Source: Castellaniella sp. (GTDB taxonomy: Bacteria; Pseudomonadota; Gammaproteobacteria; Burkholderiales; Burkholderiaceae_B). From it: a stretch of 64,000 nucleotides of DNA. The notes beneath the pieces were generated by a model, which worked only from the letters and a program-made list of their open reading frames with translations, was not told the DNA's origin and searched no databases. Both the position numbers and the translations under genes were made by a program. Below are positions 9,209 to 31,216 of the stretch, in pieces (the first letter of the stretch is position 1; every line of letters starts with the position of its first letter). The stretch lies in contig NZ_SCQN01000009.1 in NCBI RefSeq assembly GCF_004321985.1, positions 25,033-89,032 of the forward strand, in the 5' to 3' direction.

Positions 9209-9219
9209 GGTGACTGCCC

Positions 9220-10011: not shown

Positions 10012-10048
10012 CCCTTTTCTCCGTCTTGTGCCGGGGGGCTGCGGACCG

Positions 10049-11810: not shown

Positions 11811-11843
11811 CTCAATATTGAAGCGCTTCAAAAAGCGTATCAA
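11811..11843 (-). promoter_or_regulatory. LacI-type operator TTGAAGCGCTTCAA (11818-11831) overlapping a candidate sigma70 promoter (TTGATA-17-CAATAT on minus strand)
   Basis: Perfect 14-bp palindrome with central CG, 17-30 nt upstream of the quinone oxidoreductase ATG; identical copy at 30031. Confidence 0.75.
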
Positions 11844-12057
11844 AAAACGGCCGGATCTGTCAGGCACGAAGTCCCACACGTCCAGCCTTCTTCGGGTGAA
11901 GCCGCACCATGCACCCGCTGCGGCAACTGCAACAACACTTTAGCGCAACAAAATCCATCCGGCCACAAGCAATCGCAACACAGGTACGAGCCGGGCCGCC
12001 CGGCCACCGCCAACGAACCAAGCGGAGAACAGTCACGGCGACTCGTTCAAAGGATCT

Positions 12058-13455
12058 CTAGATGTGCAATGCCCGTTCATACGCCGCGAGAACAGCCTCA
12101 TGCATCGCCTCGGACTGCGTGGGATGCGGGAACACCGTCCGCATCAGATCCTCCTCGGTCGCCTCCAGCCCCATGGCGACCGCATAGCCATGGATCATCT
12201 CCGTCACCTCGGCCCCCACCATATGAGCACCCAGGAGTTCGCCACTGGCCGCGTCCATCACGACCTTGACAAAACCCTCGGTATCGCCGAGGGCAATTGC
12301 CTTCCCGTTGGCGGCGAATGGGAAGCGGCCCACACGCACCTCACGGCCCCCGGCATGCGCCTGTGCCTCTGTCAGGCCCACATGCGCTACCTGTGGATGG
12401 CTGTATGTGCAAGCTGGAATCCGTGTTGCGTCCAGCGGATGCGGCTTGCCTCCAGCAATGGCCTCCACACAAGTTACCGCCTCATGCGAGGCCTTGTGTG
12501 CCAGCCACGGGGCGCCCGCCAAGTCGCCAATGGCATACACCCCCGGCTCATGCGTGGCACCCAGAGCGTCCGTCAACACATGAGAGCGCTCCACTCTGAC
12601 CGCTGTCCGCTCCAGGCCCAGGCCCTCGTAGTTACCGACGATGCCGGCCGCAACCAGAACCACCTCCGCTTCCAGAGGTTGGGCTACCCCCTGAAGCATG
12701 ATCCGCCACACGGCGCCGACCCGCTGGCTGCCGGCAACGCGCGCACCAAGATGAATCTCCATGCCCTGCTTACGCAACGAGGCTGCAACAAAAGCGGAGA
12801 CTTCCTCGTCTTCTGGGGGCAGGATGCGGTCGGCCATTTCCACGATCCGCACCTGAACACCCAGCGCGTGATAGAAACTGGCGAACTCAACGCCGATCGC
12901 CCCGGCTCCGATGACCACCATGCGCGGTGGCAGAAATCGGGGAGACAGCGCTTCGCGGTAATACCAGACGCTGGCCGGATCGGGGTCCAGACCCGGCAGC
13001 ACCCGCGCTCTGGCACCCGTTGCCAGAATGATGTGCGCCGCTCGAAGCGAGGACTCACGGCCGGATGCCTGTGACCCTTCGAGCCGGATGGCACCACCGC
13101 CTGCCAGGCTCGCGCAAGCGCGAATCACTTCGACGCCGTTCTTCTTCAGTAAATAGGAAACGCCGCGCTGCAGCTCTCCCGCCACCTTGCGCGAGCGGCC
13201 AACCATGGCCGGCAGGTCGGCCACGGGCTGCCCCACCGTCACCCCGTAGCGATCGGCCATTCGGACCAGCCGCAGCACGTCGGCGGACCGGAGCAAGGCC
13301 TTGGTGGGAATGCATCCCCAGTTCAAACACACCCCGCCCAGCTCGGCCTGCTCCACCAGCGCCGTGCGCAATCCCAGTTGTGCGGCCCGGATGGCGGCCA
13401 CATAGCCACCCGGGCCGCCGCCAATGACCGCCACATCGTAATCAACCGATTTCAT
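12058..13455 (-). CDS. lpdA: Dihydrolipoyl dehydrogenase (E3)
   Basis: GGGPGGY, redox motif GGVCLNWGCIPTK, GAGAIGVE, HPTQSE. Confidence 0.95.
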   Translation of the reverse strand: MKSVDYDVAVIGGGPGGYVAAIRAAQLGLRTALVEQAELGGVCLNWGCIPTKALLRSADVLRLVRMADRYGVTVGQPVADLPAMVGRSRKVAGELQRGVSYLLKKNGVEVIRACASLAGGGAIRLEGSQASGRESSLRAAHIILATGARARVLPGLDPDPASVWYYREALSPRFLPPRMVVIGAGAIGVEFASFYHALGVQVRIVEMADRILPPEDEEVSAFVAASLRKQGMEIHLGARVAGSQRVGAVWRIMLQGVAQPLEAEVVLVAAGIVGNYEGLGLERTAVRVERSHVLTDALGATHEPGVYAIGDLAGAPWLAHKASHEAVTCVEAIAGGKPHPLDATRIPACTYSHPQVAHVGLTEAQAHAGGREVRVGRFPFAANGKAIALGDTEGFVKVVMDAASGELLGAHMVGAEVTEMIHGYAVAMGLEATEEDLMRTVFPHPTQSEAMHEAVLAAYERALHI

Positions 13456-13462
13456 GATGTCT

Positions 13463-14737
13463 TCAGACCAGAGCCGCCAGAGGGTTTTCGATGATGCGAC
13501 GGAAGGCGCCCAGCCATTCGGCGGCCACCGCGCCATCAATGGCGCGGTGATCGACGGACAACGTGACGATCATCATCGGCGCCACTTCCACGACGCCATC
13601 CGGACCCGCCACCACTCGCTGCTCGATGGCTCCAACCGCCAGAATGGCGGCCTGCGGCGGATTGATGATGGCGGCAAACTCCGTCGTCCCGTACATGCCC
13701 AGGTTGCTGATCGTGAAACTGCCCCCCTGGTACTCTGGCGGCGAGAGCCTGCCTTCGCGAGCTCGGGCGGCCAGGGCGGCGATCTCCGCGCTGACCCGCG
13801 ACAGGGACTTGTCCTGGACGCCGCGAACGACCGGGGTGATCAGCCCGGAAGGCGTCGAGACCGCCACCGACAGATCCACCCCGGAATGGCGGATCAACGC
13901 ATCGTCGGTCCAGCTGACATTCATGTCCGGGTGCTCCGTCAAGGCCACGGCCACCGCCTTGACCACGATGTCGTTGATGGACACATGGCGCCCGCCTTCG
14001 TTGATCTGCCGGCGCAGCGCGGCAAGCGCCTGCATGCGGCACTCGGACCGAAGATAAAAGTGCGGGATTGTGGTCTTGCTCTCGAGCAGGCGCCGGGCGA
14101 TCGTGCGCCGCATGGCGGAATGAGGAACCGCGACGTCGCCCGGCGCCAGCGAGGCAGCCCGCGAAGCCACCGGCTCCGCCGGGACGGCGGGCGGGACGGC
14201 TGCCGCGGCGCGCGCAAGCGCCGCCTGGACGTCACGCTTCACGATCCTGCCGTGAGGACCGCTGCCGGCCAATCCCTGCAGGGGCAGACCCGCCCGCGCA
14301 GCCAGCCTGCGTGCGAGCGGACTGGCAAACACCCGCTCCGGCGCCGCGTCAGTCAATGACGACTGAGGCACCGGGGGAACAGCGGGCGCGGACGCCACTG
14401 GCACGCCCTGGCTGCCCGTCCCCGCCAGCGCCACTTTCGTCGCCGCCGCCCCAGCCGGTTGCCCCGACAGCAGCGCGTCCACATCGGTGGCCTGCTCACC
14501 GGGCGCGAGCAGGACCGCCACCGGCGCACCCACCCGGGCGGCCTGACCCGCCGGGACCAGGATGCGTCCAAGTTGCCCCGCTGATTCAGAGGTCAGCTCG
14601 ACGACCGCCTTGTCCGTCTCGATTTCCGCCACGCATTCACCAACCGCGATGGCGTCACCTTCCGCTTTCGCCCAGGCGACAATGACCGCCGATTCCACAT
14701 TGGCCGATACCTCCGGCATCCGCAACAGAGTCGCCAT
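13463..14737 (-). CDS. Dihydrolipoamide acyltransferase (E2), complete
   Basis: Lipoyl motif IETDKA, subunit-binding ASPLARRLA...GSGPHGRI, catalytic DHRAIDG. Confidence 0.95.
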   Translation of the reverse strand: MATLLRMPEVSANVESAVIVAWAKAEGDAIAVGECVAEIETDKAVVELTSESAGQLGRILVPAGQAARVGAPVAVLLAPGEQATDVDALLSGQPAGAAATKVALAGTGSQGVPVASAPAVPPVPQSSLTDAAPERVFASPLARRLAARAGLPLQGLAGSGPHGRIVKRDVQAALARAAAAVPPAVPAEPVASRAASLAPGDVAVPHSAMRRTIARRLLESKTTIPHFYLRSECRMQALAALRRQINEGGRHVSINDIVVKAVAVALTEHPDMNVSWTDDALIRHSGVDLSVAVSTPSGLITPVVRGVQDKSLSRVSAEIAALAARAREGRLSPPEYQGGSFTISNLGMYGTTEFAAIINPPQAAILAVGAIEQRVVAGPDGVVEVAPMMIVTLSVDHRAIDGAVAAEWLGAFRRIIENPLAALV

Positions 14738-14738
14738 G

Positions 14739-16946
14739 TCAGTTGCCTCCCCGAGCCCGAACGGGCGCTCCCTGCCCGGCCATGATGCGTTCCAGGCCTT
14801 CCATCACCTCCTCGGTACGCGCGCAGGCCGCGCGTTCCAGAACCTTGGAGATACTGGGCGAGGCCTCGCCCCCGGTCACCCGCTGCACGGGCTGGTCCAG
14901 CCAGTCGAAGAACCTGCGCTGGATTTCGTCGCCCAGCCAGCCGCCGTAGGCAGTTCCGGACGACCCCTGTTCCACGATCAGCACATTGTTGGTCTTGCGG
15001 ATGCTGGCACCCACCGTCTCCCAGTCCAGGCTCGCCCGATCAAGCCAGCGCAGGTCGATCACCTCGGCATCCACCCCGGTCTTTTCCACCGCATCCAGTG
15101 AATGCTGGACCATGGACAGATACGTCAGCACCGTGGCATCCCTGCCCTCGCGGCGCACGGCCGCGCGGCCAAAGGCCGTCTGGAAGTCGAAATCATCTAC
15201 GGGCGCCAGACCGGTGCTGTTGTACAGGTCCACGTGCTCGATCACCAGAACGGGATCCTCGATCCGCAAGGCGGCATTCATCAACCCCACGTAATCGAAA
15301 GGCGTGGACGGCGCGACGATGCGCCAGCCCGGACTGGTGGCGAAGATGCCTGCGGGATCCATGGAATGCTGAGATCCGTAGCCCGTCCCCATGGCCACCT
15401 TGGAACGCAGCACCAGAGGCATCCGGATATCCCCGCCGAACATATGGCGCGCCTTGCCGATCTGGTTGAAAACCTGATCAGCCGCCACCCACAGGAAATC
15501 GGGGTACATGAACTCCACCACCGGACGAAAACGGCCGTTCATGGCAATGCCGCCGCCCAGACCCGCAAACGCGTTTTCGCTGATCGGTGTGCCGAGGACC
15601 CGATCCGGGAAGCGATCGTGCAGGCCCCGGGTGGCGCCATTGGTGCCGCCCTTGAGACGATGCACATCCTCCCCAAGGATCACGATGCGGTCATCCACCA
15701 CCATGCGGCGCTCCATGGTCTCGGCAACCACGTCGATGAACTTGCGCTCCTCGAGCTTGCCCTTGAAGGTGGACTGTTCCTCGGTCCGCACACCGCGCAG
15801 TTCGTGGAGTTCGCTGCGCACGCCCACGTCGCGGAATCCCGGATCTGGCCACAACTCGGGCCGGATGCGGCGCTTGCCAGGCCGTTCCGGATCGGCCTCG
15901 ATGAGGGCAGCCACGGCCTGGCGCATCCCTTCCTGCATCCGCGCGCGCAGCGTCTCCAGATCCGCGTCGGATGCCATCCCCAGGGCTTTCATGCGCTTGC
16001 CCAGCGCCGCCAGCGGATCGCGCGCGCGCCAGCTGGCCTCTTCTTCCTTGGATCGATAGCCGAACGCGCTGCCCGGATAACCCCCATTCTGGTGCAAATA
16101 GCGATAGACGTCCGCTTCGATCAGGGTGGGACCATTGCCGGCCCGCATATGGGCAACCGCCTGCCGCATGGCAAGATGCACGGCATAGGCGTCCATGCCG
16201 TCTACCTTCCAGCTCGGAATGTTGAAGGCGCCGCCGCGCGAGGACAGACGCGGCTCGGCGGTGGACTCTTCCACTTTGGTGGAGACGGCGTAGCGATTGT
16301 TCTCGATGAAAAAGCACAATGGCAGCTTCCAGGCGGCCGCCAGATTCATGGACTCCAGGACGGAACCGATGTTGGTGGCCCCATCGCCGAAAAACGTGAC
16401 CGAGACATCATCGGTACCGGCGTGGCGATGCGCCCAGGCGGACCCCGCCGCAAACGGCACCCCGCCCCCAACGATCGCATTGGTGCCCATGACACCAGCC
16501 TCGGCCCAGCGCAAATGCATGGAGCCACCGCGCCCGCGGCAGAACCCCTGCGAGAGCCCCAGGATCTCCGCCAGCGTGCGCTGCAGCAGCGCCTGCACGT
16601 CCTCGCCCAGCGGCGCACGCGGGTCGGCGCGGCCGGGCCGGAGATGGGCCAGCGATTTCGCGAGGAAATGATGGTGCCCGCGGTGGGAGCCATTGACCTG
16701 GTCCGCCGAGCGCAGGAACGCGAGCGCGCCGGCCGCGCCGCCCTCCTGGCCAATACTGGAGTGAGCCGGACCATGAACCAGGCCTTCCATGGCCAGATCG
16801 ACCACCGTTTCCTCGAAAGCGCGGATCAGATGCATGTGCGTCAGCAGCGTCCCCAGCACGTCGGGATCCGCCGTCTTCCAGTCCCTTTCGGTGACACGCA
16901 GTTCCGACCACTCGGATGCGGGTGTGAGTGCTATCAGCTTCGACAT
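14739..16946 (-). CDS. Fused alpha+beta E1 of a TPP-dependent 2-oxoacid/acetoin dehydrogenase (735 aa)
   Basis: Start MSKLIAL at 16946 (GGAG RBS); alpha part HSSIGQE, FFGDGATN..ENN; beta part GEDV, TPISE, single reading frame. Confidence 0.93.
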   Translation of the reverse strand: MSKLIALTPASEWSELRVTERDWKTADPDVLGTLLTHMHLIRAFEETVVDLAMEGLVHGPAHSSIGQEGGAAGALAFLRSADQVNGSHRGHHHFLAKSLAHLRPGRADPRAPLGEDVQALLQRTLAEILGLSQGFCRGRGGSMHLRWAEAGVMGTNAIVGGGVPFAAGSAWAHRHAGTDDVSVTFFGDGATNIGSVLESMNLAAAWKLPLCFFIENNRYAVSTKVEESTAEPRLSSRGGAFNIPSWKVDGMDAYAVHLAMRQAVAHMRAGNGPTLIEADVYRYLHQNGGYPGSAFGYRSKEEEASWRARDPLAALGKRMKALGMASDADLETLRARMQEGMRQAVAALIEADPERPGKRRIRPELWPDPGFRDVGVRSELHELRGVRTEEQSTFKGKLEERKFIDVVAETMERRMVVDDRIVILGEDVHRLKGGTNGATRGLHDRFPDRVLGTPISENAFAGLGGGIAMNGRFRPVVEFMYPDFLWVAADQVFNQIGKARHMFGGDIRMPLVLRSKVAMGTGYGSQHSMDPAGIFATSPGWRIVAPSTPFDYVGLMNAALRIEDPVLVIEHVDLYNSTGLAPVDDFDFQTAFGRAAVRREGRDATVLTYLSMVQHSLDAVEKTGVDAEVIDLRWLDRASLDWETVGASIRKTNNVLIVEQGSSGTAYGGWLGDEIQRRFFDWLDQPVQRVTGGEASPSISKVLERAACARTEEVMEGLERIMAGQGAPVRARGGN

Positions 16947-16960
16947 GAACAAACTCCAAA

Positions 16961-17785
16961 TCAAATATATCCGTAGGCCGACCAGCCGCCGTCCGCGACG
17001 GCGACGTGACCATTGATGAACGCCGCGTTGTCCGAGGCCAGGAACAGCACCAGAGCCGCGATTTCCTCCGGGGTGCCCAGCCGACCCAACGGGGTCCGCC
17101 TCGACAGCGCATCCAGATCCATCCGCCCCCGCGCCACCAGGTCGTCCACCAGCGCGGTGCGCACATATCCTGGCGCAATGGCGTTGACCCGCACCCCTAG
17201 CGGACCCCATTCCACTGCCAGCGACTTGGTCAGCATGGCCACCGCCGCCTTGCTGGCGCAATAGGCGGCCCGGTTGGGGGCCGCGACCACGCCGTACATG
17301 GACGACGTGTTGACGATGACGCCGCGGCCCCGGGCCGTCATGAGGCGGCCAGCCGCGCGGGCGCAGTAGAAAACCCCATTCAGGTTGACGTCCATGGCCT
17401 TGCGCCATTGGTCGCCCGGAAGCTCCAGCGTCGGGCAATTCATGGAAATCCCGGCATTGTTGAGCAGCACATCCACATGGCCCCAGGCCTGTTCCGTCTC
17501 GGCAAAGACTTGGTCCACGGCCGCTTCGTCATTGACCAGCCCCTGGCGACACTGGATCCCCACGCCGGGATTCGCGGCTTCGAGCTCGGCCCGCACTCTT
17601 TCCATGCCCTCGGCATCCATGTCGAACAGCACCAGCCGCGACTGACAGGCGGCGAAGGCGTGAGCCATTGCACGCCCCAGACCGCTGGCCGCGCCAGTAA
17701 TGAAAACCACCTTGTCAGCCAAACCGGCAAAACCATTCCCGCGCGCCATTCCGACCAGAGCGGCCATCGAGTCCTGCATCCTCAT
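16961..17785 (-). CDS. Short-chain dehydrogenase/reductase
   Basis: TGAASGLG, NNAG, YCASK. Confidence 0.92.
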   Translation of the reverse strand: MRMQDSMAALVGMARGNGFAGLADKVVFITGAASGLGRAMAHAFAACQSRLVLFDMDAEGMERVRAELEAANPGVGIQCRQGLVNDEAAVDQVFAETEQAWGHVDVLLNNAGISMNCPTLELPGDQWRKAMDVNLNGVFYCARAAGRLMTARGRGVIVNTSSMYGVVAAPNRAAYCASKAAVAMLTKSLAVEWGPLGVRVNAIAPGYVRTALVDDLVARGRMDLDALSRRTPLGRLGTPEEIAALVLFLASDNAAFINGHVAVADGGWSAYGYI

Positions 17786-17843
17786 CTCCTACAACCGTCT
17801 TCACGCACCTGCCCATCGAGGTGCGAATCGCCGCGACCCAGGA

Positions 17844-18326
17844 TCACCCCGCGGCCTGAAGGTCGGGCCGGTAGGCGGCGATGTCGTCGTACTGCACCAG
17901 TTCAACGATGTGGCCCTCCGGGTCCCGAAAGAAAACGAGCCAGGTACCGGGGCGGACTTCGACCGGTTCCGGACCCGTCATGCACTGAACTCCGTGGGCC
18001 AGCACGCGGCTGCACGCTGACCGGATATCGTCGATGATGAACGTGATGTAGCTGCTGCCCGGCTGGTCAAGGACAAAGGACGGCTGTGGCGCCGCGGCCG
18101 CCGGCGACTCCGGCGCGAGCAGCTTCAGGCGTTCGCCGTTGGAGGCCTGCAGCCGCACCACGACATAGGCCTGTTCGCTCAGCGCCGCCTGGCGGGCCTT
18201 GACCGCCGGAACCCGGATCTCGTTGACGAACGAGAGTCCCAGGACGGTTTCATAGAACTCGCGCATCTTCCGCAAATCCCGGACGTTCAAGCCCACTTCC
18301 AGGGGCGCGACCATTTTCATCGACAC
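17844..18326 (-). CDS. VOC/glyoxalase-family protein
   Basis: EVGLNVRDL....FYETVLGL, YITFIIDDI, FFRDPEGHIVELVQ; GGAGG RBS. Confidence 0.88.
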   Translation of the reverse strand: MSMKMVAPLEVGLNVRDLRKMREFYETVLGLSFVNEIRVPAVKARQAALSEQAYVVVRLQASNGERLKLLAPESPAAAAPQPSFVLDQPGSSYITFIIDDIRSACSRVLAHGVQCMTGPEPVEVRPGTWLVFFRDPEGHIVELVQYDDIAAYRPDLQAAG

Positions 18327-18350
18327 TTCAACCTCCTTGGCAATGACTAT

Positions 18351-19076
18351 TCACACGGCCAACCATTCGTCCAGGAGAGTAGGATGCGCGGCAAGATCAC
18401 CGGGCGTCCCCTCGAAGACGATCTGTCCGTGTCCCATGACACAGACCCTGCTTGAAACCTTCAGCGCGATCGTGAGCTTCTGCTCGACCAGGATCACCGC
18501 CACACCGCGGCGATGAATGTCCCGGATCATGTCTCCCACCGCCGCCACGATCTTGGGTGCCAGGCCCTCGGTCGGTTCATCGATCAGCATCAGCAGCGGG
18601 TTGCCCAGCAGGGCCCTGCACATGGTCAGCATCTGCTGCTCACCACCCGACAGGCTGCCGGCCATCGTGTTGCGGCGTTCCTTCAGCCTGGGGAAATAGT
18701 CGAACATCTGTTCGATTGTCCAGACCGGCGCCCCTGCCACCGCGGGCTGAACCCCCAGCCTCAGGTTCTCGTCCACCGTCAGATTGGTGAAGATCTCGCG
18801 CTCCTCCGGGACATATCCAATGCCGCTGCGGCAGACCAGAAAGGGGCGGCGGCCCGCCAGCTCCCGGCCCTGGAGGCGGATGGAGCCGGCGGCGGGCATC
18901 ACTAGCCCCATGATCGCCTTCAGGGTGGTCGAACGCCCGGACCCGTTGCGCCCGAGCAAGCTGATCACCTCGCCGCGCGCCACGTCAAAACTGACGCCAT
19001 GGAGGATATGGCTCTTGCCGTAATAAGCGTTGAGGTCGGAGACCTGAAACAATTGATCCGCGCCGCCCGCCATCAC
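18351..19076 (-). CDS. livF: HAAT (Liv-type) ABC transporter ATP-binding protein
   Basis: GRNGSGRST, LSGGEQQML, IDEPTEGLAP. Confidence 0.93.
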   Translation of the reverse strand: MMAGGADQLFQVSDLNAYYGKSHILHGVSFDVARGEVISLLGRNGSGRSTTLKAIMGLVMPAAGSIRLQGRELAGRRPFLVCRSGIGYVPEEREIFTNLTVDENLRLGVQPAVAGAPVWTIEQMFDYFPRLKERRNTMAGSLSGGEQQMLTMCRALLGNPLLMLIDEPTEGLAPKIVAAVGDMIRDIHRRGVAVILVEQKLTIALKVSSRVCVMGHGQIVFEGTPGDLAAHPTLLDEWLAV

Positions 19077-21108: not shown

Positions 21109-21112
21109 GGCA

Positions 21113-22054: not shown

Positions 22055-22131
22055 ATTGCCCTTGTGCTAGGAATTCCGTGCCGGGCGTCCCGAACGATCC
22101 GGAACGCCCGTTGCGAGCAAAATGGGGACGA

Positions 22132-23379
22132 TCAACTTGGACGCCGCATTTTGCAAGCGCCCTGAACCGGCGCCTCGGCCTCGGCGGCGGTCAGCAGCTT
22201 CACGGGCTTGAATCCCATGTCCGTCCCGTCCACCTTGAATTTCGCCTCGGTGGAAACTTCCGAAACCACCATGGGCAGCAGGACCTGATGGTCGGCTGCC
22301 CGCATGGTCCATGCACCCATCGGGGTGTCCAGCTTGGTCTGCTCGATCTGGAGCGCCAGCTTGTTGATGTTGAGCTTGCCGTTTTCAGGAGCGACCTTCT
22401 TCAGCGCCGCACCGACCATCTCGATACCGAACAAGGTCTGGGGCTCGACGTAGACGGGGTAATGACCGACCTTGGCCTTGAACTCGTCGGCCATCGAAAC
22501 GCCAGCGCCGCCGTTGGCTTCCGCATCAAACGGGTGCACCACATAGGCGCCCAGAGCCACATGACCGGCATTGGCCAGATTCCCAGGCTGATCCAGGAAT
22601 GTGGTGGCGAAGCGCGCCTTCAGGCCACCCGCCTTCGCGGCCTTCATGAGCAGCAGCAGGTCGTTGGACCAGTTGCCCGTGATCACCGTCTGAGCGCCGC
22701 TGGCGATGATCTTTTGCACGTACGGGGAGAAGTCCTGGATCTTGTTCACATCATGCAGCGTCTCGCCCACGACCTTGTAGCCACCCTCGGCGGCATTCTG
22801 TCCGATCGCATTCTGCATATCCACGCCCCAGGAATAGTTCTGGTTGATGGAATAGACTTTCGTGCCCAGCGTATTGGCGGACTTCATGGCTTCCACCAGG
22901 GCCTTCACGCTGATGTCGGAATTTCCCGCAAAACGGAAGGCGTGGAAATTGCACTTGCTGCCCGTCAATTCCATGGCCTCCGCACCGACGTTGAGGAACA
23001 GCACTTCCCTGCCCGGGTTGCGGATATCGTACTTGCGGATATCTTCGCTGAGCTGGCCTGCGACGGCCGATGAGGCACCCTGGACCACCATCTGCGCACC
23101 GTCCGCGATCGCTGCCTTCAGCTTCTCGGCGGCGCCCGCCGGGGTTCCCTGGCTGTCGTATTGCAGCAGCTTGATGGGTTCGCCGCCCCAGCCGCCCTGG
23201 GCGTTGAGTCGTTCCACCGCATAGCGCGTGGCATCCCGGTACATCAGGCCCGTGGAAGCCTGAGGACCCGACAGCGTTTCCACAATTGCGATCTTCAGCG
23301 GCTCTGCGTTTGCCAGGCTGCCGATCACCGAAAGGGCAGCACAAAGCATCAACGGTTTGAAAATGGCTCGGTTTGCCAT
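22132..23379 (-). CDS. HAAT ABC transporter substrate-binding protein (PBP1 family)
   Basis: Signal peptide, LKIAIVETLSGP, QNYSWG; start MANRAIF with AGGAG RBS. Confidence 0.9.
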   Translation of the reverse strand: MANRAIFKPLMLCAALSVIGSLANAEPLKIAIVETLSGPQASTGLMYRDATRYAVERLNAQGGWGGEPIKLLQYDSQGTPAGAAEKLKAAIADGAQMVVQGASSAVAGQLSEDIRKYDIRNPGREVLFLNVGAEAMELTGSKCNFHAFRFAGNSDISVKALVEAMKSANTLGTKVYSINQNYSWGVDMQNAIGQNAAEGGYKVVGETLHDVNKIQDFSPYVQKIIASGAQTVITGNWSNDLLLLMKAAKAGGLKARFATTFLDQPGNLANAGHVALGAYVVHPFDAEANGGAGVSMADEFKAKVGHYPVYVEPQTLFGIEMVGAALKKVAPENGKLNINKLALQIEQTKLDTPMGAWTMRAADHQVLLPMVVSEVSTEAKFKVDGTDMGFKPVKLLTAAEAEAPVQGACKMRRPS

Positions 23380-23721
23380 GAAATTGTCTCCTGAACTCAA
23401 GATTTCGTGCGGCCACCCGCAGGGCGGCCGGGTCATTGAACCGTGATCCAACTGGTCTGACAGGTGAGTCTATTAGTCGTAATTTTGACTGTCAATAAGA
23501 AATCACCCCATTGAGGGTTTTCACCGATCTGCCTCATTCCAGTCCTATGGATTCATCGAGTGAAACCATATTATTCATTTATATCAGTGGCTTGATTAAC
23601 AATCGACAATTCATTTACCTGGGACACACGGCTCAAAACAGAACCAGATCAGGCAAAGCAAAAATCAGCCAACCTGTCAGGCAGCTTGAACCTCGGACAC
23701 CCCATGCTCTAATATCAGCTT

Positions 23722-24459
23722 ATGAAGACATACGAACTCCGGCCCGACGCCCGCCGGACGGTGGCTGAACCCACCAGCCTCCCGGACGAGGTCGCCAGCG
23801 AACTCATCACGGCCATCCGCGATGGCACGTACGGCGTCGGTGACCGGCTGCCCAGCGAACGCGAGCTATGCGAGAAATTCTCGGTGAGCCGCGCCGTCAT
23901 TCGCGAAGCCCTGTCACAACTGAAGTCCGAGGGACTCACGGCGTCCCGGGCCGGCAGCGGCGTCTTCGTCACCGAGCCGAACTACCAGGATGCTTTCCGC
24001 CTGCAGCCGGTGGACCTGGACGAGAAGCAGTCGCTGGCCATGGTCATGGAGCTGCTGTCGGCCTTCGAATCCGCCGCAACACGGCTCGCCTCGCTGCGGC
24101 GCACCGAATCTGATCTGAAGAACATCCGGCGCGCGCTGGTCGGCATGGAGTACGAAATCGCCAACGACCACCTGGGCGACGAGCAGGACTTCGCGTTCCA
24201 CCAGGCCATCGTCAATGCCACGCACAATCCGCACTACCAGGCGCTGAGCAAGCATCTGGAGCACAGCGTCCGGCGCCTCATCCGCCGGGCCCGCAGCAAC
24301 ACCAAGGCCAACTCCACCGACCTCGTCGAGGCCGTGCAGGAAGAACACAAGGCCATCTTCGCGGCCGTCAAGGCCGGCGACCCGGACGCAGCCGCGCAGG
24401 CGGCCGAACAGCACCTTGTCAACGCCGCCAAACGGCTCAAGCTCTACCTGAAGAGCTGA
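23722..24459 (+). CDS. FadR-subfamily GntR regulator
   Basis: GDRLPSERELCEKFSVSRAVIREAL; FCD domain DFAFHQAIVNATHN. Confidence 0.93.
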   Translation: MKTYELRPDARRTVAEPTSLPDEVASELITAIRDGTYGVGDRLPSERELCEKFSVSRAVIREALSQLKSEGLTASRAGSGVFVTEPNYQDAFRLQPVDLDEKQSLAMVMELLSAFESAATRLASLRRTESDLKNIRRALVGMEYEIANDHLGDEQDFAFHQAIVNATHNPHYQALSKHLEHSVRRLIRRARSNTKANSTDLVEAVQEEHKAIFAAVKAGDPDAAAQAAEQHLVNAAKRLKLYLKS

Positions 24460-24480
24460 ATTCACCCGGGAGCAACCCGA

Positions 24481-25224
24481 ATGATCGGTTTTCAACACAA
24501 GACAGTAGTGATCACCGGAGCTACCGGCGGCATAGGACGCGCAACGGCCCAGCTCATGCACGCGGCGGGAGCCGGCATCGCCCTTTGCGACCTGTCCGCG
24601 GACAGCCTGGAATCCCTGCGCAAAGAGCTTGCGGGATCGGGCAACGCCGGGCTGGTGAGCAGTCACCCGCTGGACGTGTCGGATTCCAAAGCCTGCGACG
24701 CCGCCATCCACGACATCGCAACCCGTCACGGGTCTATCGACCATCTGGTGAATGCCGCCGGCATCTACCCCGAACAGACCGTCAGCGGCATGACCGACCA
24801 GCAGTGGCGTGCACTCATGTCCATCAATCTGGACGGGACGTTCTACATGTGCCGCGCCGTGCTTCCGCACCTGGGCGAGAACAGTTCCATCGTCAACCTG
24901 TCATCAATGGCCGGCCACCGCGGCAGCTTTTCACACGCGCACTATGCGGCCTCCAAAGGCGGCGTGAGCAGCCTGAGCAAGAGCCTGGCTCGGGAACTGG
25001 CTCCCCGGACACGCGTCAACATCGTGGCTCCCGGCATCATCGCCACCCCCATGATCGAACAACTAGTCCGCGAGAAAGGTACGGCCCTGCTGGGCGACAC
25101 GCCCATGAAACGCTACGGCACGGCGCGCGAAGTGGCGGGTGTGGTGGCCTTTCTGTGTTCGGAACTCGCCTCTTTCGTCACCGGCGAGACTCTACACGTG
25201 AATGGCGGGCTGTATATCGTCTAG
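24481..25224 (+). CDS. Short-chain dehydrogenase/reductase
   Basis: TGATGGIG, NAAG, YAASK. Confidence 0.92.
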   Translation: MIGFQHKTVVITGATGGIGRATAQLMHAAGAGIALCDLSADSLESLRKELAGSGNAGLVSSHPLDVSDSKACDAAIHDIATRHGSIDHLVNAAGIYPEQTVSGMTDQQWRALMSINLDGTFYMCRAVLPHLGENSSIVNLSSMAGHRGSFSHAHYAASKGGVSSLSKSLARELAPRTRVNIVAPGIIATPMIEQLVREKGTALLGDTPMKRYGTAREVAGVVAFLCSELASFVTGETLHVNGGLYIV

Positions 25225-25278
25225 TGCTCGCCCGAACGAACCGCGTCGTACCCATCCGACACGCCAGGCAGTCAGCCG

Positions 25279-25983
25279 TCAATAGCCCAGATAGGCCCGC
25301 TTGATGTGCGGGTTCGCCAGCAGCTCGCTGCCGGTGCCCTCCTGGACGATGCTGCCGTTCTCCAGGACATAGCCGCGGTCGGCGAGCTGCAGCGTCTGGA
25401 AAACATTCTGCTCGACCAGCAGCACCGTCATGCCGCCCGACGTGATGCGCCGGATAATATCGAACATCTGGTCCACGAGCAGCGGCGAGAGGCCGACTGA
25501 AGGCTCGTCAAACACGAGCAGCTTCGGTGCGGACATCATGCCGCGCGCGATGGCCACCATCTGCTGCTCGCCACCCGAGAGGGAGCCGGCGATCTGACCT
25601 AGCCGCTCGCGCACACGTGGGAAGAGCTCCAGCACCTCGTCCATCTTGCGATGCGCATCCGCCCGGGCCGCCCGCTTGTAGGTTCCCATCAGCAGATTGT
25701 CGCGCACCGTGAAAGTCGGAAAGAGTTGGCGTCCCTCGGGTACCATCGTGATGCCCGCGTCAACGATCTCGAACGAAGGCTTGTTAGTGAGGTCCTGGCC
25801 CTCGAATTCGACCCGGCCTTCGGTAGCGGCCACGACGCCGCACAAGGCCTTCAATGTCGTTGTCTTCCCCGCACCATTGGCGCCGATGAGCGTGACCACT
25901 TCGCCGGCATTCACGTGAAAGTTCAGGTGATTGATGACCTGCGTCTTGCCATATCCGGCGCACAGATTGGTGACGTTAAGCAT
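25279..25983 (-). CDS. livF: HAAT ABC transporter ATP-binding protein
   Basis: GANGAGKTT, VPEGRQLF, LSGGEQQM. Confidence 0.93.
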   Translation of the reverse strand: MLNVTNLCAGYGKTQVINHLNFHVNAGEVVTLIGANGAGKTTTLKALCGVVAATEGRVEFEGQDLTNKPSFEIVDAGITMVPEGRQLFPTFTVRDNLLMGTYKRAARADAHRKMDEVLELFPRVRERLGQIAGSLSGGEQQMVAIARGMMSAPKLLVFDEPSVGLSPLLVDQMFDIIRRITSGGMTVLLVEQNVFQTLQLADRGYVLENGSIVQEGTGSELLANPHIKRAYLGY

Positions 25984-27757
25984 GCCGATACCCCTTACCC
26001 AGATACGCCTCGATCACTTGCGGGTTCTCGACGACTTCCTGAGGCGTGCCACTGGTCAGCACCTGCCCCTCGTTGATGACGATGACCCGATCGGAAAGTG
26101 CCATGACGGCCTGCATCATGTGCTCGATCATCACCACCGACACGCCGGACTCCCGGATCCTGCGGATCATGGCGATTGCCTTGTCGATATCGGTGGGATT
26201 CAGGCCGGCCATGACTTCATCAAGCAGCAGAATCCTGGGACGTGTCGCCAGGGCGCGGGCCACTTCCAGCCGCTTCATGCCACCCACGGTCAGGTTCCTG
26301 GCTTCGACCTGCAGCTGCTCCTCCAATCCCGTCTGCCGTGCAACGGCCAGCGCCTCAGCTTCGGCATGCCGCCTGTCCGTGGTGTGGATGAACGCACCCA
26401 GCATGACGTTCTCCAGGACAGTCAGCCCAGTAAACGGTTGGGCAATCTGGAACGTCCGGCTCATCCCCTTGTGCGCGAACTGGAAAGGCGCATGACAACT
26501 CGTCCAGTCACCGGTACGCGCCAGCATGCGCACCGTCCCCCTGTCCGGCCGCAGGAAGCCCGACAATTGGTTGAACACCGTGGTCTTGCCAGCCCCGTTG
26601 GGACCGATGATTCCCAGGATCTCGTTCTCGTACAACGTTAGCGAGACGTCATTCGTGGCACGCAGACCACCGAAGTTCTTGAACAGGTGGCTGGCCTCGA
26701 GCACAGGTTTCTCGCTGCGCGTGCAACCTGTGCCCAGCGGCTGCGCCGCGTGGCCACCCCCCTGCCCCCGCCCCAGGTACGGCAAGCGCGCAAGAACCTT
26801 CCTTTCGACATAATTGCCAAAGGCGCCGACCAGCCCATGAGGGATGGTCAGGACGACCACGACCAGGATGACTCCATAAATGAGGCCGTGCACGCCGTTG
26901 CCGACGCCACTGAGCCACGCCCGCGCCAGTTCGGCGATGGGCAGCACCAGGAAAGTCCCGGCCACGGGGCCGGCCACGGTTCCCATGCCGCCGATGAGTG
27001 CAAACATGGCGATCTGGATGGAAAGATCCAGAGAGAAGGCCGAGGCGGGGTCGATGAAGGTCAAGTAGGTGATGTGGAACGTCCCCACCAGGCTGGTGAG
27101 CATGGCCGAGATGACGGCCGCCAGCGTCTTGACGTTGGCCGTATTGATGCCGACCGCCAGTGCGGCGTCCTCACGCTCGCGGACCGCGAGCAGATAGTGC
27201 CCCAGGCGTGCCTTGCGAATCACCCACGAGGCCCAGAGCACCAGCAGGAACAGCACGAAGGCAATGATTAGGTAGTTGGTTTTGTCACGGAACACCATCC
27301 ACTTCCAGCCTATGCTCAGGGGCAGGCTGATGCCACTGGAGCCGCCGGTCCAGCTTTCTTCATGGATGACCAGCAGCCGCACGACTTCCAGGATGGCGAT
27401 GGTGGCCAGGGCAAAGAACGGTCCCTTGAGCCTCAACGTAGGATAGCTGATGATGACCGCCACGACCCCCGACACCAGGGCACCCGCGATCATGCCGAAC
27501 CACGGCGAAATCCCGAAATCCTGGGTGAGCAGCGTGGCCGCATAACCGCCAATGCCATAGAACACGGCATGCCCGAGGGACAGCTGGCCCGCAAACCCGC
27601 CCACGATGTTCCACGCGACCGACAGCGATGAGAACACAAAGAGCAGCACGAACAGATTGGTCCAGAAGGGGCTGTCCAACGACAGCGGAACCAGAAACAT
27701 CAGCGCGAACAGAGTCAGGCTGACATAGGTTTTTGGGTGTCGGATGTCGGGAAACAC
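25976..27757 (-). CDS. Fused HAAT permease (LivM) + ATPase (LivG), 593 aa
   Basis: N-terminal GFAGQLSLGH membrane domain; C-terminal GPNGAGKTT, LLDEVMAG in the same frame. Confidence 0.92.
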   Translation of the reverse strand: MFPDIRHPKTYVSLTLFALMFLVPLSLDSPFWTNLFVLLFVFSSLSVAWNIVGGFAGQLSLGHAVFYGIGGYAATLLTQDFGISPWFGMIAGALVSGVVAVIISYPTLRLKGPFFALATIAILEVVRLLVIHEESWTGGSSGISLPLSIGWKWMVFRDKTNYLIIAFVLFLLVLWASWVIRKARLGHYLLAVREREDAALAVGINTANVKTLAAVISAMLTSLVGTFHITYLTFIDPASAFSLDLSIQIAMFALIGGMGTVAGPVAGTFLVLPIAELARAWLSGVGNGVHGLIYGVILVVVVLTIPHGLVGAFGNYVERKVLARLPYLGRGQGGGHAAQPLGTGCTRSEKPVLEASHLFKNFGGLRATNDVSLTLYENEILGIIGPNGAGKTTVFNQLSGFLRPDRGTVRMLARTGDWTSCHAPFQFAHKGMSRTFQIAQPFTGLTVLENVMLGAFIHTTDRRHAEAEALAVARQTGLEEQLQVEARNLTVGGMKRLEVARALATRPRILLLDEVMAGLNPTDIDKAIAMIRRIRESGVSVVMIEHMMQAVMALSDRVIVINEGQVLTSGTPQEVVENPQVIEAYLGKGYRHA

Positions 27758-27776
27758 GCGCGAGACTCCTTGTGAC

Positions 27777-28643
27777 TCAATCCGTGCCCAGGCCGAACAG
27801 CCCGCTGGGACGCAGTATCAGGATCAGCAGGAAGACGCCGAAATAAACGACCTCCTTCAGGTCCGGCGAGATGTAGTAGCCCGCCATCGTATCCACCACC
27901 CCGATGATCAGGGAGCCGACCACGGCGCCGTACAGATTGCCCATCCCGCCCAGCACCACGATGACAAACGCGGTCAAGACGAAATAGGTCCCGACTGTGG
28001 GAAAGACGGGGTACTGGGGTGACAGCAGGCCGGCGGCCACCCCCACAAACGCGGTACCCAAACCGAAGGCCACTACGTAGACCGATTTGACATTGACACC
28101 CATCAGCATGGCCGCATATCGATGCTGCGCAACGGCTCGAAGCGCGCGGCCCAGGTAGGTGCGATGCATGAACAGATGCAGCAAGATCGCCAGCATGATC
28201 GCGACGATGAAGGTCAGAATCTGGCCCGTCACCAGGGACAACGGCCCCACGGCCACTGAGCGCGTGCCGACCGTCACATGCGCCCGAAAGACGTCCGCGC
28301 CGAACACCACCAGCGCGAGATTCATCAGCAGGATTGATACCCCGACCGTTGCGAAAATCTGAATTTCCTCGCCCGCATTCAACAGCGGCTCGATGACAAC
28401 CTTCTGCATGAGCGCACCCAGCGCGAACAGGATGACCACCACGGGCACCAGCGCGATATAGGGATGGATGCCCAAGTGCAATGACATGAGGTAGACAAGA
28501 TACATGCCGACCATCAGGAACTCGCCGTGGGCAAAGTTCACGACGCGGACGACCCCGAAAATGAGCGTCAGCCCCAAGCTGATGATGGCGTAGACTCCGC
28601 CCAAAAGGAGGCCGTTGACGAGCAGCTGAAAAAAGATGTCCAT
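27777..28643 (-). CDS. livH: HAAT ABC transporter permease
   Basis: LVNGLLLGGVYA..GLTLIFGVVRVVNFAHGE, RPSGLFG. Confidence 0.93.
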   Translation of the reverse strand: MDIFFQLLVNGLLLGGVYAIISLGLTLIFGVVRVVNFAHGEFLMVGMYLVYLMSLHLGIHPYIALVPVVVILFALGALMQKVVIEPLLNAGEEIQIFATVGVSILLMNLALVVFGADVFRAHVTVGTRSVAVGPLSLVTGQILTFIVAIMLAILLHLFMHRTYLGRALRAVAQHRYAAMLMGVNVKSVYVVAFGLGTAFVGVAAGLLSPQYPVFPTVGTYFVLTAFVIVVLGGMGNLYGAVVGSLIIGVVDTMAGYYISPDLKEVVYFGVFLLILILRPSGLFGLGTD

Positions 28644-28734
28644 GGACCCAGTCTCCGATTCTCACAGGCCGCCGACAGGAAAGCTGAGGTGCGGGGCCGA
28701 TGCGCTGCCCCACCCCCCAATCACGCGGCCGCCA

Positions 28735-29928
28735 TCACTTCTTGAAGACGGGCTTAGCCTGCGCCAAGTCCTTGGGCGCGATGGTCTTCAGGATGCCATC
28801 CTGCCACTGCATCAAATACAGCGTGGAGGCGACGTTCTGGCCATCCTTGTCGAACTTGAAACCCCAGCCGTTGGCCGTCTGCCCTGTCGGCACCTGATAG
28901 GCGAGAACCGCTTCGCGAATCTTGTCCTTGTCCAGAGATCCTGCCTTGCCCATCGCGTCCAGGAACGCCTTGGCACCGACATAGTTGGCCAGGCTGTGCC
29001 CCGACTGCGGCGTGGCGTTATAGGTCGATTTGTATTCGGCCAGGAACTTTTCCAGCCCCGGTGCGCCCTTCGGGTTGATAGAAATCTGCGGGAAGTCCAG
29101 GTTGAACACCCCATTGATATCCGATCCTACGGCCTTCCCCGTGTCGACGAGCGAGTACCCGCCACCAGCGCCAATCACAACTGCAGGATTGAAATTAGCT
29201 TCTTTTGCCTGGCGGAAGTAGAGCACCGTATCGTTCTGGTAGGACGTCTGCATCACGACATTGGCCTTGTCGCCCTTCAGGCGCAAGATGAGCGAAGACA
29301 GGTCCACGGACTTCGCCGAATACGCCAACTTCTGCACGACGGTATAACCAAGTGCCTTAGCGCGCTTTTCCTCGGTGGCCGCCACATCGGTGCCGTAAGG
29401 GCCATCTTCGTGAATGATGCCAATTCGAATGTCCTTTTTGTTCAAGCCCATCCCGGGGACAATCGTCTTATCCAGCGCACCCACGACGGCATCGCCAAAC
29501 GTTTCGGTATTCGGGTTGCTGCGGAACAGGTACTTATAGCCGCGGGTCGTGATCTTGTGAGCCGTGGCGCCTAATTCGAAATACGGGATCCCTGCGAGCT
29601 CCGCGACCGGGGAGGCCGCGTAGGCGAGTCCGGAGGCGTAACTCCCGAAAATGGCCGCGACCTTGTCGGCAACGAGCTGCTTGGCTCCCGATACAGCCTG
29701 GTTCGGATCAACCGCATCCACCTTCACGATCTCGATCTTGTCGCCGTTGATGCCGCCGGCAGCGTTGCGCTCGTTGACCGCCAGCTCCAATCCGCGAAAA
29801 CTCTCCTGGCCCAGCAACGCCAGGCCGCCACTGAAGGGATACAACGCCCCGATTTTCACGGGAGCCGCTGTCGCCGTCGCCGCCAGCACGCTCGACGCCA
29901 AGGCAATGACCAGTTTGCTGCACTTCAT
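28735..29928 (-). CDS. HAAT ABC transporter substrate-binding protein
   Basis: Signal peptide, VKIGALYPFSG, GSYASG; start MKCSK with AGGAG upstream. Confidence 0.9.
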   Translation of the reverse strand: MKCSKLVIALASSVLAATATAAPVKIGALYPFSGGLALLGQESFRGLELAVNERNAAGGINGDKIEIVKVDAVDPNQAVSGAKQLVADKVAAIFGSYASGLAYAASPVAELAGIPYFELGATAHKITTRGYKYLFRSNPNTETFGDAVVGALDKTIVPGMGLNKKDIRIGIIHEDGPYGTDVAATEEKRAKALGYTVVQKLAYSAKSVDLSSLILRLKGDKANVVMQTSYQNDTVLYFRQAKEANFNPAVVIGAGGGYSLVDTGKAVGSDINGVFNLDFPQISINPKGAPGLEKFLAEYKSTYNATPQSGHSLANYVGAKAFLDAMGKAGSLDKDKIREAVLAYQVPTGQTANGWGFKFDKDGQNVASTLYLMQWQDGILKTIAPKDLAQAKPVFKK

Positions 29929-30030
29929 GTCTACACTCCTCATCCCGTGCGACAGATGCCGGATCCGGGAATTATTGTCAGGTTCGCACCTTCATTCTTC
30001 CGTATGGCGCCATACCGTGCCATACCCGTG

Positions 30031-30108
30031 TTGAAGCGCTTCAAAAACTCGCTCCAAAAAAAGGAAATGCCGGTTTCGTGATCACCTATAATCGTTGAAG
30101 CGCTTCAT
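30031..30108. promoter_or_regulatory. Two LacI-type operators (TTGAAGCGCTTCAA 30031-30044; TTGAAGCGCTTCAT 30095-30108) and a perfect TATAAT (30087-30092) in the divergent SBP/LacI region
   Basis: Palindromes read directly from sequence, adjacent to the LacI gene. Confidence 0.8.
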
Positions 30109-30149
30109 TCCCTTGTGCCAGATTATCACGACACCAAAATTCACTGTCA

Positions 30150-31205: not shown

Positions 31206-31216
31206 CTGGGCAGCCT

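What the first reader, a model, noticed from the sequence alone, without database searches (positions are those of the whole stretch)
11818..30108. Duplicated promoter-operator cassette defines a split LacI regulon 18 kb apart
Seen: TTGAAGCGCTTCAAAAA (17 nt) is identical at 11818 and 30031, in the same orientation, with continued similarity (GCGTATCAAAAAACGG vs CTCGCTCCAAAAAAAGG); both lie upstream of minus-strand operons. A third copy (TTGAAGCGCTTCAT, 30095) sits just after a perfect TATAAT in front of lacI. Known: CG-centred palindromes are typical LacI operators. Inference: LacI 30150 controls itself, the Liv transporter 25279-29928 and the distant redox operon 7610-11801, so these form one pathway. 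The FadR/fused-E1 block between them may be a later insertion.
Basis: partly seen in the sequence, partly recalled or inferred. Interest (0 to 1): 0.65.

Follow-up and report, generated by a model that had tools for sequence, protein, structure and literature searches.

The report
LacI repressor sites on split operon
Three copies of one 14-base palindrome are almost certainly the binding sites of the neighbouring LacI-type repressor, which keeps a transporter operon and a dehydrogenase operon under common control after a 13-kb block of other genes split them; this is a clean but ordinary example of bacterial gene regulation.

Summary
TTGAAGCGCTTCAA lies at 11818 and 30031, and TTGAAGCGCTTCAT at 30095. 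The 12-base core TGAAGCGCTTCA occurs only three times in the 3.4-Mb genome, and these are the three. The same core is the only 12-mer shared by the upstream regions of ten orthologous lacI genes from Castellaniella, Bordetella, Allopusillimonas and other Alcaligenaceae. The recognition helix SLGSASRAL is invariant in the orthologues shown and differs in the four LacI paralogues of this genome.

In one genus mate and in two family-level relatives, the transporter genes and the SDR, shikimate-dehydrogenase-like and GMC genes form one operon divergent from lacI; in Bordetella SDR1 follows the transporter genes. In this genome and three genus mates, a GntR/Liv2/E1E2E3 block sits between livF and the quinone-oxidoreductase gene. 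All four carry operators in front of the orphaned half. None of the five contiguous operons has one there.

"Duplicated cassette" is not shown: similarity outside the operator is not above chance. The main transporter promoter is probably the conserved TTGACA-17-GATAAT beside the 30095 site. The locus tree needs either two insertions or one insertion and one loss.

The substrate is unknown. This is a new member of a known kind, of low to moderate interest.

The parts
30150..31205 (+). lacI-family repressor gene (351 aa)
   Evidence: PF00356 HTH scores 40.1 bits (cut-off 27), with PF13377 and PF00532 effector domains; best NCBIfam match is P. aeruginosa-type GntR at 236.6 bits, below the 400 cut-off; recognition helix SLGSASRAL and hinge ARALASRR are conserved in the orthologues.
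30095..30108 (.). Operator O1 (TTGAAGCGCTTCAT). It starts 2 nt after TATAAT of the lacI promoter and lies 13 nt downstream of the -10 of the minus-strand transporter promoter.
   Evidence: A lacI-proximal operator is present in every orthologous locus shown.
30031..30044 (.). Operator O2 (perfect palindrome TTGAAGCGCTTCAA). It is 64 bp from O1, in the predicted leader, 102 nt before the binding-protein ATG.
   Evidence: A second operator is present in most orthologous loci at spacings from 28 to 87 bp.
11818..11831 (.). Operator O3 (perfect palindrome), 16 nt upstream of the quinone-oxidoreductase ATG and inside the spacer of the only sigma-70-like promoter predicted there.
   Evidence: It is conserved in all four split genomes (window, G009, G001, G021) while the flanks diverge. 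It is absent between livF and the next gene in contiguous operons.
30122..30150 (-). Predicted transporter-operon promoter: TTGACA (30150-30145), 17 nt, GATAAT (30127-30122).
   Evidence: 11 of 12 matches to consensus. TGTCAA and the ATTAT-type -10 are conserved at the same spacing in most of the orthologous loci shown.
30087..30092 (+). TATAAT, candidate -10 of the lacI promoter; no recognisable -35.
   Evidence: Similar TATAAT or CATAAT lies directly before O1 in L001, L002 and L007 but not in all relatives.
11814..11843 (-). Promoter-like site in front of the distal operon: TTGATA, 17-18 nt, CAATAT/AATATT, with O3 in the spacer.
   Evidence: The same layout occurs in G009 (TTGACG-17-CAATAT) and G021 (TTGGTG-17-CAATTT). 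The GAGGA ribosome-binding site would then lie at or before the transcription start, so the true start site is uncertain.
25279..29928 (-). LIV/HAAT-type ABC transporter operon: binding protein 28735-29928, LivH-like permease 27777-28643, LivM-LivG fusion 25976-27757, LivF-like ATPase 25279-25983.
   Evidence: the best solved relative of the binding protein is 8WCH, the SAR11 L-pyroglutamate-binding protein (E 1e-48; PMC11485210).
7610..11801 (-). Distal oxidoreductase operon: PIG3-type quinone oxidoreductase 10803-11801, SDR 10049-10831, shikimate-dehydrogenase-like 9220-10011, GMC flavoprotein 7610-9208.
   Evidence: It directly follows livF in G005, and L005 and L006 have the same layout.
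12058..25224 (.). Intervening block: E3, E2, fused E1, SDR, glyoxalase/VOC protein, a second LIV-type ABC transporter, a GntR/FCD regulator and an SDR.
   Evidence: It is absent from this position in G005, L005, L006 and Bordetella. It occurs as a stand-alone block in G044.

Best explanation
The 14-bp CG-centred palindrome TTGAAGCGCTTCAA is the operator of the LacI-family repressor encoded at 30150-31205. A repressor dimer at O1 (30095) sits over the start regions of two face-to-face promoters. One is the weak lacI promoter (TATAAT 30087-30092). The other is the strong minus-strand transporter promoter (TTGACA-17-GATAAT, 30150-30122). O1 therefore gives autoregulation and repression of the LIV-type ABC operon. 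O2 (30031) is a second operator in the transporter leader. O3 (11818) lies 16 nt before the first gene of the four-oxidoreductase operon. There it either occludes the local promoter or blocks RNA polymerase reading through from the upstream E1E2E3 genes. An unknown small molecule, taken up by the transporter and oxidised by these enzymes, is expected to release the repressor. At family level the transporter and oxidoreductase genes formed one lacI-divergent operon. In part of the genus a 13.5-kb GntR-controlled 2-oxoacid-dehydrogenase/transporter block came to lie between livF and the quinone-oxidoreductase gene. The cut-off half kept LacI control through its own operator. What is shown here: the sites, their uniqueness in the genome, their conservation, the synteny, and the predicted promoters. 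What is inferred: binding, repression, the effector, and the start sites.
For: Uniqueness. The core 12-mer occurs only 3 times in 3.4 Mb, and all three are these sites.

Footprint. TGAAGCGCTTCA is the only 12-mer shared by all 10 lacI-upstream regions compared. Operators lie upstream of lacI in 7 of 8 further loci from the family-wide search, three of which are loci not already seen.

Protein and site co-conservation. The recognition helix SLGSASRAL is invariant in the orthologues shown (57-90% overall identity) and differs in the four LacI paralogues of this genome.

Position. O1 lies between conserved divergent promoter elements. O3 lies in the spacer of the only promoter-like site in front of the distal operon.

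One functional unit. The contiguous arrangement lacI<>SBP-livH-livMG-livF-(ADH)-SDR-ShikDH-GMC is found in G005, L005 and L006, and partly in B. hinzii and B. pseudohinzii.

O3 tracks the split. It is present in 4 of 4 split genomes, and doubled in G001 and G021. It is present in 0 of 5 contiguous operons at the livF junction.

Family fit. The layout matches the LacI family: even palindromes with a central CG, and 72% of members autoregulated (PMC4052901).
Against: The promoter predicted at O3 would leave the GAGGA ribosome-binding site at or upstream of the transcription start. The promoter assignment there is therefore doubtful.

The lacI promoter has no -35 element, and its TATAAT is not conserved in all relatives.

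O1-O2 spacing varies from 28 to 87 bp among relatives, so cooperative looping is not supported.

The effector is unknown. The enzymes are generic oxidoreductases, and a LIV-type transporter is unusual for a family in which 96% of assigned groups control sugar pathways.
Confidence: 0.85

Rival explanations
1. O3 is a non-functional or minor site. The distal oxidoreductase genes are really expressed as the tail of the GntR-controlled E1E2E3 operon by read-through, so they now belong to that regulon rather than to LacI's.
For: No terminator-like site lies between E3 and the quinone-oxidoreductase gene. The only local promoter prediction conflicts with the ribosome-binding site. The two modules co-occur in the genus. 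In G044 a shikimate-DH-like gene is the last gene of the E1E2E3 operon.
Against: A perfect consensus operator is kept in all four split genomes while the surrounding intergenic sequence is not alignable between lineages. G001 and G021 even carry two copies 28 bp apart. Read-through and a LacI roadblock are compatible, so this is more a refinement than an alternative.
Confidence: 0.07
2. The palindromes are bound by another regulator, such as one of the four other LacI paralogues or the GntR/FCD protein at 23722, and not by the protein at 30150.
For: The paralogue on contig C57 has a similar recognition helix, SVATASRAL. No experiment assigns the site.
Against: The site accompanies the orthologues of this lacI in genomes that lack the GntR block (G005, L005, L006, Bordetella, L002, L007). 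It is always directly upstream of lacI. No copy lies near the other paralogues. CG-centred 14-mers are not GntR/FCD-type sites; that last point is from general knowledge.
Confidence: 0.04
3. The O3 control region arose as a true segmental duplication of the O2 promoter-operator region, which is the first reader's 'cassette'.
For: There is 17-nt identity including three extra T. A run of 6-8 T followed by G lies about 10-13 nt upstream of the operator, in operon sense, at O2 in most relatives and at O3 in the window and G009. The -35-like TTGNNN / operator-in-spacer layout is the same.
Against: Flank similarity is not above chance (p about 0.25). The O3 regions of G001 and G021 have a different, two-operator architecture. 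Selection for a consensus palindrome alone explains 14 of the 17 identical bases.
Confidence: 0.3

Closest known systems
Local LacI/GalR-family repressors with divergent, autoregulated target operons, as catalogued in the RegPrecise LacI-family survey (PMC4052901)
   Same: HTH plus periplasmic-binding-protein fold. An even palindrome with a central CG. Operators between the regulator gene and a divergent transporter/catabolic operon. Autoregulation. A small regulon of two or three transcription units.
   Different: The partner transporter is of the LIV/HAAT type rather than a sugar ABC or PTS system. The enzymes are four generic oxidoreductases with no recognisable sugar pathway. No described orthologue or motif was found.
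Cra/FruR operator (GCTGAAAC|GTTTCAGC; recalled from general knowledge)
   Same: Same half-site register, TGAAnC|GnTTCA. The site here differs by one symmetric position (TGAAGC|GCTTCA).
   Different: The protein is not a Cra equivalog: NF008452 scores 79 bits against a cut-off of 385. It is a local regulator, not a global one.
Pseudomonas aeruginosa GntR (gluconate repressor, NF052440)
   Same: Best-scoring curated family for the protein.
   Different: The score of 236.6 is well below the cut-off of 400. No gluconate genes are in the regulon.
GalR/GalS and PurR regulons of E. coli (general knowledge)
   Same: One LacI-family repressor, identical operators at physically separate transcription units, and two operators at one promoter region.
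   Different: Here the separation is a secondary split of a formerly single operon. There is no evidence for looping, because the spacing is not conserved.

Membership tests
LacI/GalR-family repressor-operator system | N-terminal LacI-type helix-turn-helix | tested here: met
   PF00356 scores 40.1 bits against a cut-off of 27. The HTH aligns with the orthologues.
LacI/GalR-family repressor-operator system | C-terminal periplasmic-binding-protein-like effector domain | tested here: met
   PF13377 at 103 bits and PF00532 at 91 bits.
LacI/GalR-family repressor-operator system | Even palindromic operator with a central CG | tested here: met
   TTGAAG-CG-CTTCAA is a perfect 14-bp palindrome. The family rule is taken from PMC4052901.
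LacI/GalR-family repressor-operator system | Operator conserved upstream of orthologous regulator and target genes (phylogenetic footprint) | tested here: met
   It is the only 12-mer shared by 10 of 10 lacI-upstream regions. Further loci are covered. O3 is conserved in 4 of 4 split genomes.
LacI/GalR-family repressor-operator system | Specific DNA binding relieved by a small-molecule effector | not testable with these tools
   Needs EMSA or footprinting and a ligand screen.
P. aeruginosa GntR equivalog (NF052440) | Score above the curated equivalog cut-off | tested here: not met
   236.6 bits against a cut-off of 400.
Cra/FruR (NF008452 / TIGR02417) | Score above the curated cut-off | tested here: not met
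   79.3 against 385, and 93.5 against 389.55.
Segmental duplication ('duplicated cassette') | Sequence similarity extending beyond the functional site, above chance | tested here: not met
   Local alignment of 60-nt flanks gives score 8, reached by 25% of shuffles.
Operon split by insertion | Contiguous arrangement in outgroups and an intervening block only in a subset | tested here: met
   Contiguous in G005, L005, L006 and Bordetella. Split in the window, G009, G001 and G021.
Operon split by insertion | A single origin of the split state on the locus tree | tested here: not met
   The tree is ((G001,G021),(G005,(win,G009))) with 100/100 support. The AU test rejects monophyly of the split genomes (p = 0.002).

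The most novel reading that the evidence does not exclude
The GntR-controlled 2-oxoacid-dehydrogenase/transporter block and the LacI regulon are two halves of one catabolic route for a still unidentified non-sugar compound, and their physical nesting has been selected, possibly more than once. O3 then works as a roadblock or insulator that keeps the downstream oxidoreductases answerable to LacI despite transcription entering from the E1E2E3 genes. Four hints point this way. The two modules co-occur in the genus. Closely related shikimate-DH-like genes are found in both modules (G044). Orthologous repressors in other genera sit next to a gabD equivalog. The nearest solved relative of the binding protein binds L-pyroglutamate.
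Probability: 0.2. Interest if true: 0.5.

Novelty: new member of a known kind. Interest (0 to 1): 0.3.

Why it matters
The result gives a well-supported operator, repressor and three-unit regulon for an uncharacterised LacI-family group found in several Alcaligenaceae genera. It ties a LIV-type transporter to a set of oxidoreductases of unknown substrate. This makes the pathway directly testable with a lacI knockout, a ligand screen on the repressor and binding protein, and growth tests. It is also a tidy natural case of how a regulon survives the physical disruption of an operon. Every genome with the split has gained an operator in front of the orphaned half, and no unsplit genome has one. 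The principle is already known, so the value is mainly for annotation and as an illustration.

Tried and rejected
(1) Extended homology between the O3 and O2 flanks is not significant.

(2) Further regulon members were sought genome-wide. Thirteen sites have 2 mismatches. Eight lie inside high-GC3 reading frames, and the five others are asymmetric or lie in unrelated contexts. None was accepted.

(3) A riboswitch or known RNA in either control region was sought. Rfam gives no hit at E up to 1.

(4) A leader terminator between O1 and O2 was considered. A clear hairpin plus U-run exists in G001 and G021 only. The window's sequence folds no better than shuffles.

(5) Target-site duplications or a compositional break at the block borders were sought, and none was found.

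(6) A candidate GntR/FCD site, CTGTCAGRC, occurs 4 times in the window, including 11857 just upstream of O3. That copy is not conserved in the 90%-identical relative G009, so dual control was not adopted.

(8) The literature was searched for the operator sequence and for LacI-family regulators in Castellaniella or Bordetella linked to shikimate-DH-like genes. Nothing relevant was found.

(9) An rpoB tree was built to decide between one insertion plus loss and two insertions. It is too poorly resolved. It shows only that G005 and G044 are close sisters with complementary gene content.
Full report
**1. The observation**

The pattern TTGAAGCGCTTCAA is exact at 11818-11831 and 30031-30044. It has one mismatch (final T) at 30095-30108. 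The chance expectation at up to two mismatches is 0.17 per window, and 0 of 100 shuffles gave three matches.

The sequence shows the 17-nt identity TTGAAGCGCTTCAAAAA at the first two sites. It also shows a TATAAT at 30087-30092, two bases before the third site.

The window is G000:C3:25033-89032 of a 3.41-Mb, 86-contig assembly. In that whole genome the 12-mer core TGAAGCGCTTCA occurs exactly three times, and these are the three. The 14-mer with up to one mismatch also occurs only at these three places.

Thirteen sites have two mismatches. Eight are inside reading frames with high third-position GC. The other five are asymmetric or in unrelated places. The motif is therefore real, specific and confined to this locus.

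**2. The genes**

On the minus strand the window carries, in order:
- GMC flavoprotein, 7610-9208
- shikimate-dehydrogenase-like protein, 9220-10011
- SDR, 10049-10831
- PIG3-type quinone oxidoreductase, 10803-11801
- E3, 12058-13539
- E2, 13463-14737
- fused E1, from 14739
- a glyoxalase/VOC protein, 17844-18326
- a complete second LIV-type ABC transporter, 18351-23451

On the plus strand follow a GntR/FCD regulator (23722-24459) and an SDR (24481-25224).

On the minus strand again:
- LivF-like ATPase, 25279-25983
- LivM-LivG fusion, 25976-27757
- LivH-like permease, 27777-28643
- Peripla_BP_6 binding protein, 28735-29928

Finally, on the plus strand, comes a 351-aa LacI-family protein (30150-31205) with an HTH and both effector-domain families. 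It is not an equivalog of any named regulator. The best curated match is P. aeruginosa GntR at 236.6 bits, against a cut-off of 400.

**3. Which protein binds the palindrome**

Relatives of the LacI protein were fetched from Castellaniella (L001, which is G009, 90% identical), Allopusillimonas, Bordetella hinzii and B. pseudohinzii, and several Alcaligenaceae MAGs. Four genus mates were also fetched.

In every one of ten lacI-upstream regions, TGAAGCGCTTCA is present. An unbiased k-mer count shows it is the only 12-mer shared by all ten. A family-wide search found the orthologue in 10 of 151 sampled genomes from 7 genera. Operators lay upstream of lacI in 7 of the 8 loci returned, three of which had not been seen before.

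The recognition helix "SLGSASRAL" and the hinge "ARALASRR" are invariant or nearly so across the orthologues shown, which are 57-90% identical overall. The four other LacI paralogues of this genome have different helices.

The site also travels with lacI in genomes that lack the GntR block, which excludes the GntR protein as the binder. A CG-centred even palindrome and autoregulation are the rule in this family (PMC4052901).

**4. Promoters and likely mechanism**

A minus-strand promoter, TTGACA (30150-30145), 17 nt, GATAAT (30127-30122), matches consensus at 11 of 12 positions. Its two hexamers are conserved at the same spacing in most of the relatives shown. O1 (30095) begins 13 nt downstream of this -10 and 2 nt downstream of the plus-strand TATAAT. 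One bound dimer would therefore cover the start regions of both face-to-face promoters. This gives repression of the transporter operon and of lacI.

O2 (30031) lies 64 bp away, in the predicted 187-nt leader. Among relatives the O1-O2 spacing ranges from 28 to 87 bp. I therefore do not propose looping. O2 is an auxiliary operator or roadblock.

O3 (11818) is 16 nt from the quinone-oxidoreductase ATG. It sits in the spacer of the only promoter-like site found there: TTGATA, 17-18 nt, CAATAT/AATATT. The same layout is seen in G009 and G021.

This promoter would place the GAGGA ribosome-binding site at or before the start of the transcript. No terminator separates E3 from this gene. O3 may therefore equally act as a roadblock to polymerases arriving from the E1E2E3 genes. 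Either way the predicted effect is repression. These steps are inferred, not shown.

**5. One pathway, and the split**

In the genus mate G005 the arrangement is lacI<>SBP-livH-livMG-livF-quinone oxidoreductase-SDR-ShikDH-GMC, with no gap larger than about 60 nt. The MAGs L005 and L006 have the same operon. L005 carries a different Zn-ADH in the slot after livF, and L006 has none. B. hinzii and B. pseudohinzii have SBP-livH-livMG-livF-cupin-SDR-FeADH-ZnADH.

The transporter and the SDR/ShikDH/GMC genes therefore form one unit at family level.

The window, G009, G001 and G021 have the GntR/Liv2/E1E2E3 block exactly between livF and the quinone-oxidoreductase gene. All four have operators in front of the orphaned half: one copy in the window and G009, and two copies 28 bp apart in G001 and G021. 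The rest of that intergenic region is not alignable between the two pairs. None of the five contiguous operons has an operator at the livF junction. This perfect association is the strongest argument that O3 is functional.

**6. History**

A concatenated tree of six regulon proteins gives ((G001,G021),(G005,(window,G009))) with full support. The AU test rejects a clade of the four split genomes (p = 0.002). The split state therefore needs two events: one insertion plus a clean loss in G005, or two insertions.

Several further observations bear on this:
- The regulator and SDR order in the block differs. It is GntR then SDR in the window and G044, and SDR then GntR in G001 and G021.
- The Liv2 genes of G001 and G021 are only 54-73% identical to the window's, against 79-85% for G044.
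- G044 is a close sister of G005 by rpoB. It carries the block alone, ending with a shikimate-DH-like gene directly after E3. That gene is a paralogue lying basal to the regulon copies.
- The fused-E1 gene is found only in genus members that also have the LacI regulon, plus G044 and G017.

I could not decide between the scenarios. The rpoB tree is poorly resolved, and the block borders show no target-site duplication or compositional break.

"Later insertion" is thus supported relative to the family-level ancestor, but not as a single simple event.

**7. "Duplicated cassette"**

Outside the palindrome plus three T, the O3 and O2 flanks are no more similar than shuffled sequence.

One feature is shared. 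A run of 6-8 T followed by G lies 10-13 nt upstream of the operator, in operon sense, at O2 in most relatives and at O3 in the window and G009. This leaves duplication possible, and I put it at about 0.3. It is not demonstrated.

**8. Function of the pathway**

The substrate is unknown. The available hints are:
- The nearest solved relative of the binding protein is the SAR11 L-pyroglutamate-binding protein 8WCH (PMC11485210).
- The shikimate-DH-like enzyme is closest to a P. putida SDH-family protein (4k28) and is also related to 5-ketofructose reductase.
- The GMC enzyme is closest to choline dehydrogenase and a chloramphenicol-oxidising enzyme.
- In Allopusillimonas and L007 the orthologous repressor, with the same operator, is divergent from a gabD equivalog (850 and 837 bits against a cut-off of 828) and other transporter types.

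A small hydroxy acid, oxo acid or lactam is a reasonable guess, but no more than that.

**9. Comparison and verdict**

This is a standard local LacI-family regulon, autoregulated and with a CG-centred palindrome. Its half-site register is that of Cra/FruR (TGAAnC|GnTTCA; from general knowledge). The protein fails the curated cut-offs for Cra and for GntR.

The LIV-type partner transporter and the non-sugar enzyme set are unusual for a family in which 96% of assigned groups control carbohydrate use. No description of this group or motif was found.

I rate it a new member of a known kind, with interest 0.3. The regulon assignment carries confidence of about 0.85 and awaits binding and expression tests.

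Noticed in passing
window 31205-31306 (+): Directly after the lacI stop, an open frame ends in ...QGCRTCPGRFMLDNQMDLIAQFIGAI*. It aligns with the C-terminus of the shikimate-DH-like protein (11 of 28 identical, pairwise E 3e-5). It looks like a 3' remnant of another copy. The downstream sequences of G009, G005, G001 and G021 show nothing similar.
   Followed up: partly
window 16961-17785 (-) versus 14739-17438 (-): An SDR-like ORF (N-terminus ...KVVFITGAASGLGRAMAHA) overlaps the 5' 480 nt of the 899-aa 'fused E1' ORF. Relatives match E1 only from about residue 162. The real E1 is therefore probably about 740 aa and is preceded by a separate SDR gene.
   Followed up: partly
window 30002-30015: A second perfect 14-bp palindrome, GTATGGCGCCATAC, lies between O2 and the binding-protein start. 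It is unique in the window and is not present in the 90% relative L001.
   Followed up: partly
window 11857, 12369, 23455(-), 23674: CTGTCAGRC occurs four times against 0.9 expected. Two copies are in the GntR/SBP2 intergenic region and one is just upstream of O3. It is a possible GntR/FCD site, but the 11857 copy is not conserved in G009. The pattern was chosen after seeing the sequence.
   Followed up: partly
L033 about 2573-2600 (G001) and L034 about 4843-4870 (G021): Between O1 and O2 these two genomes have a clean 7-8-bp hairpin followed by UUUUU, in the sense of the transporter operon. It is a terminator-like element inside the leader. The window keeps the T-run but not the hairpin.
   Followed up: partly
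L037 11418-13688 (G044:C15): A genus mate carries the GntR/Liv2/E1E2E3 block alone, with a shikimate-DH-like gene (68% identical to the window's) as the last gene after E3 and no LacI operator. G044's close sister G005 has the LacI operon without the block.
   Followed up: partly
L003 4558-5097 and L009 4218-4811: In Bordetella and in a Burkholderiales MAG, the locus includes a Cupin_7 protein that resembles 2,4'-dihydroxyacetophenone dioxygenase by eye (no NCBIfam match).
   Followed up: no
L002 8406-9899 and L007 8328-9860: In two other genera the orthologous repressor, with the same operator, is divergent from a gabD equivalog (succinate-semialdehyde dehydrogenase) followed by an SBP_bac_5 ABC system or a TctC receptor.
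   Followed up: partly
G000 contig C37:61-1320: The assembly holds an extra rpoB fragment only 59% identical to the genus rpoB. This suggests some foreign contigs in the assembly, whose stated contamination is 3.2%.
   Followed up: no
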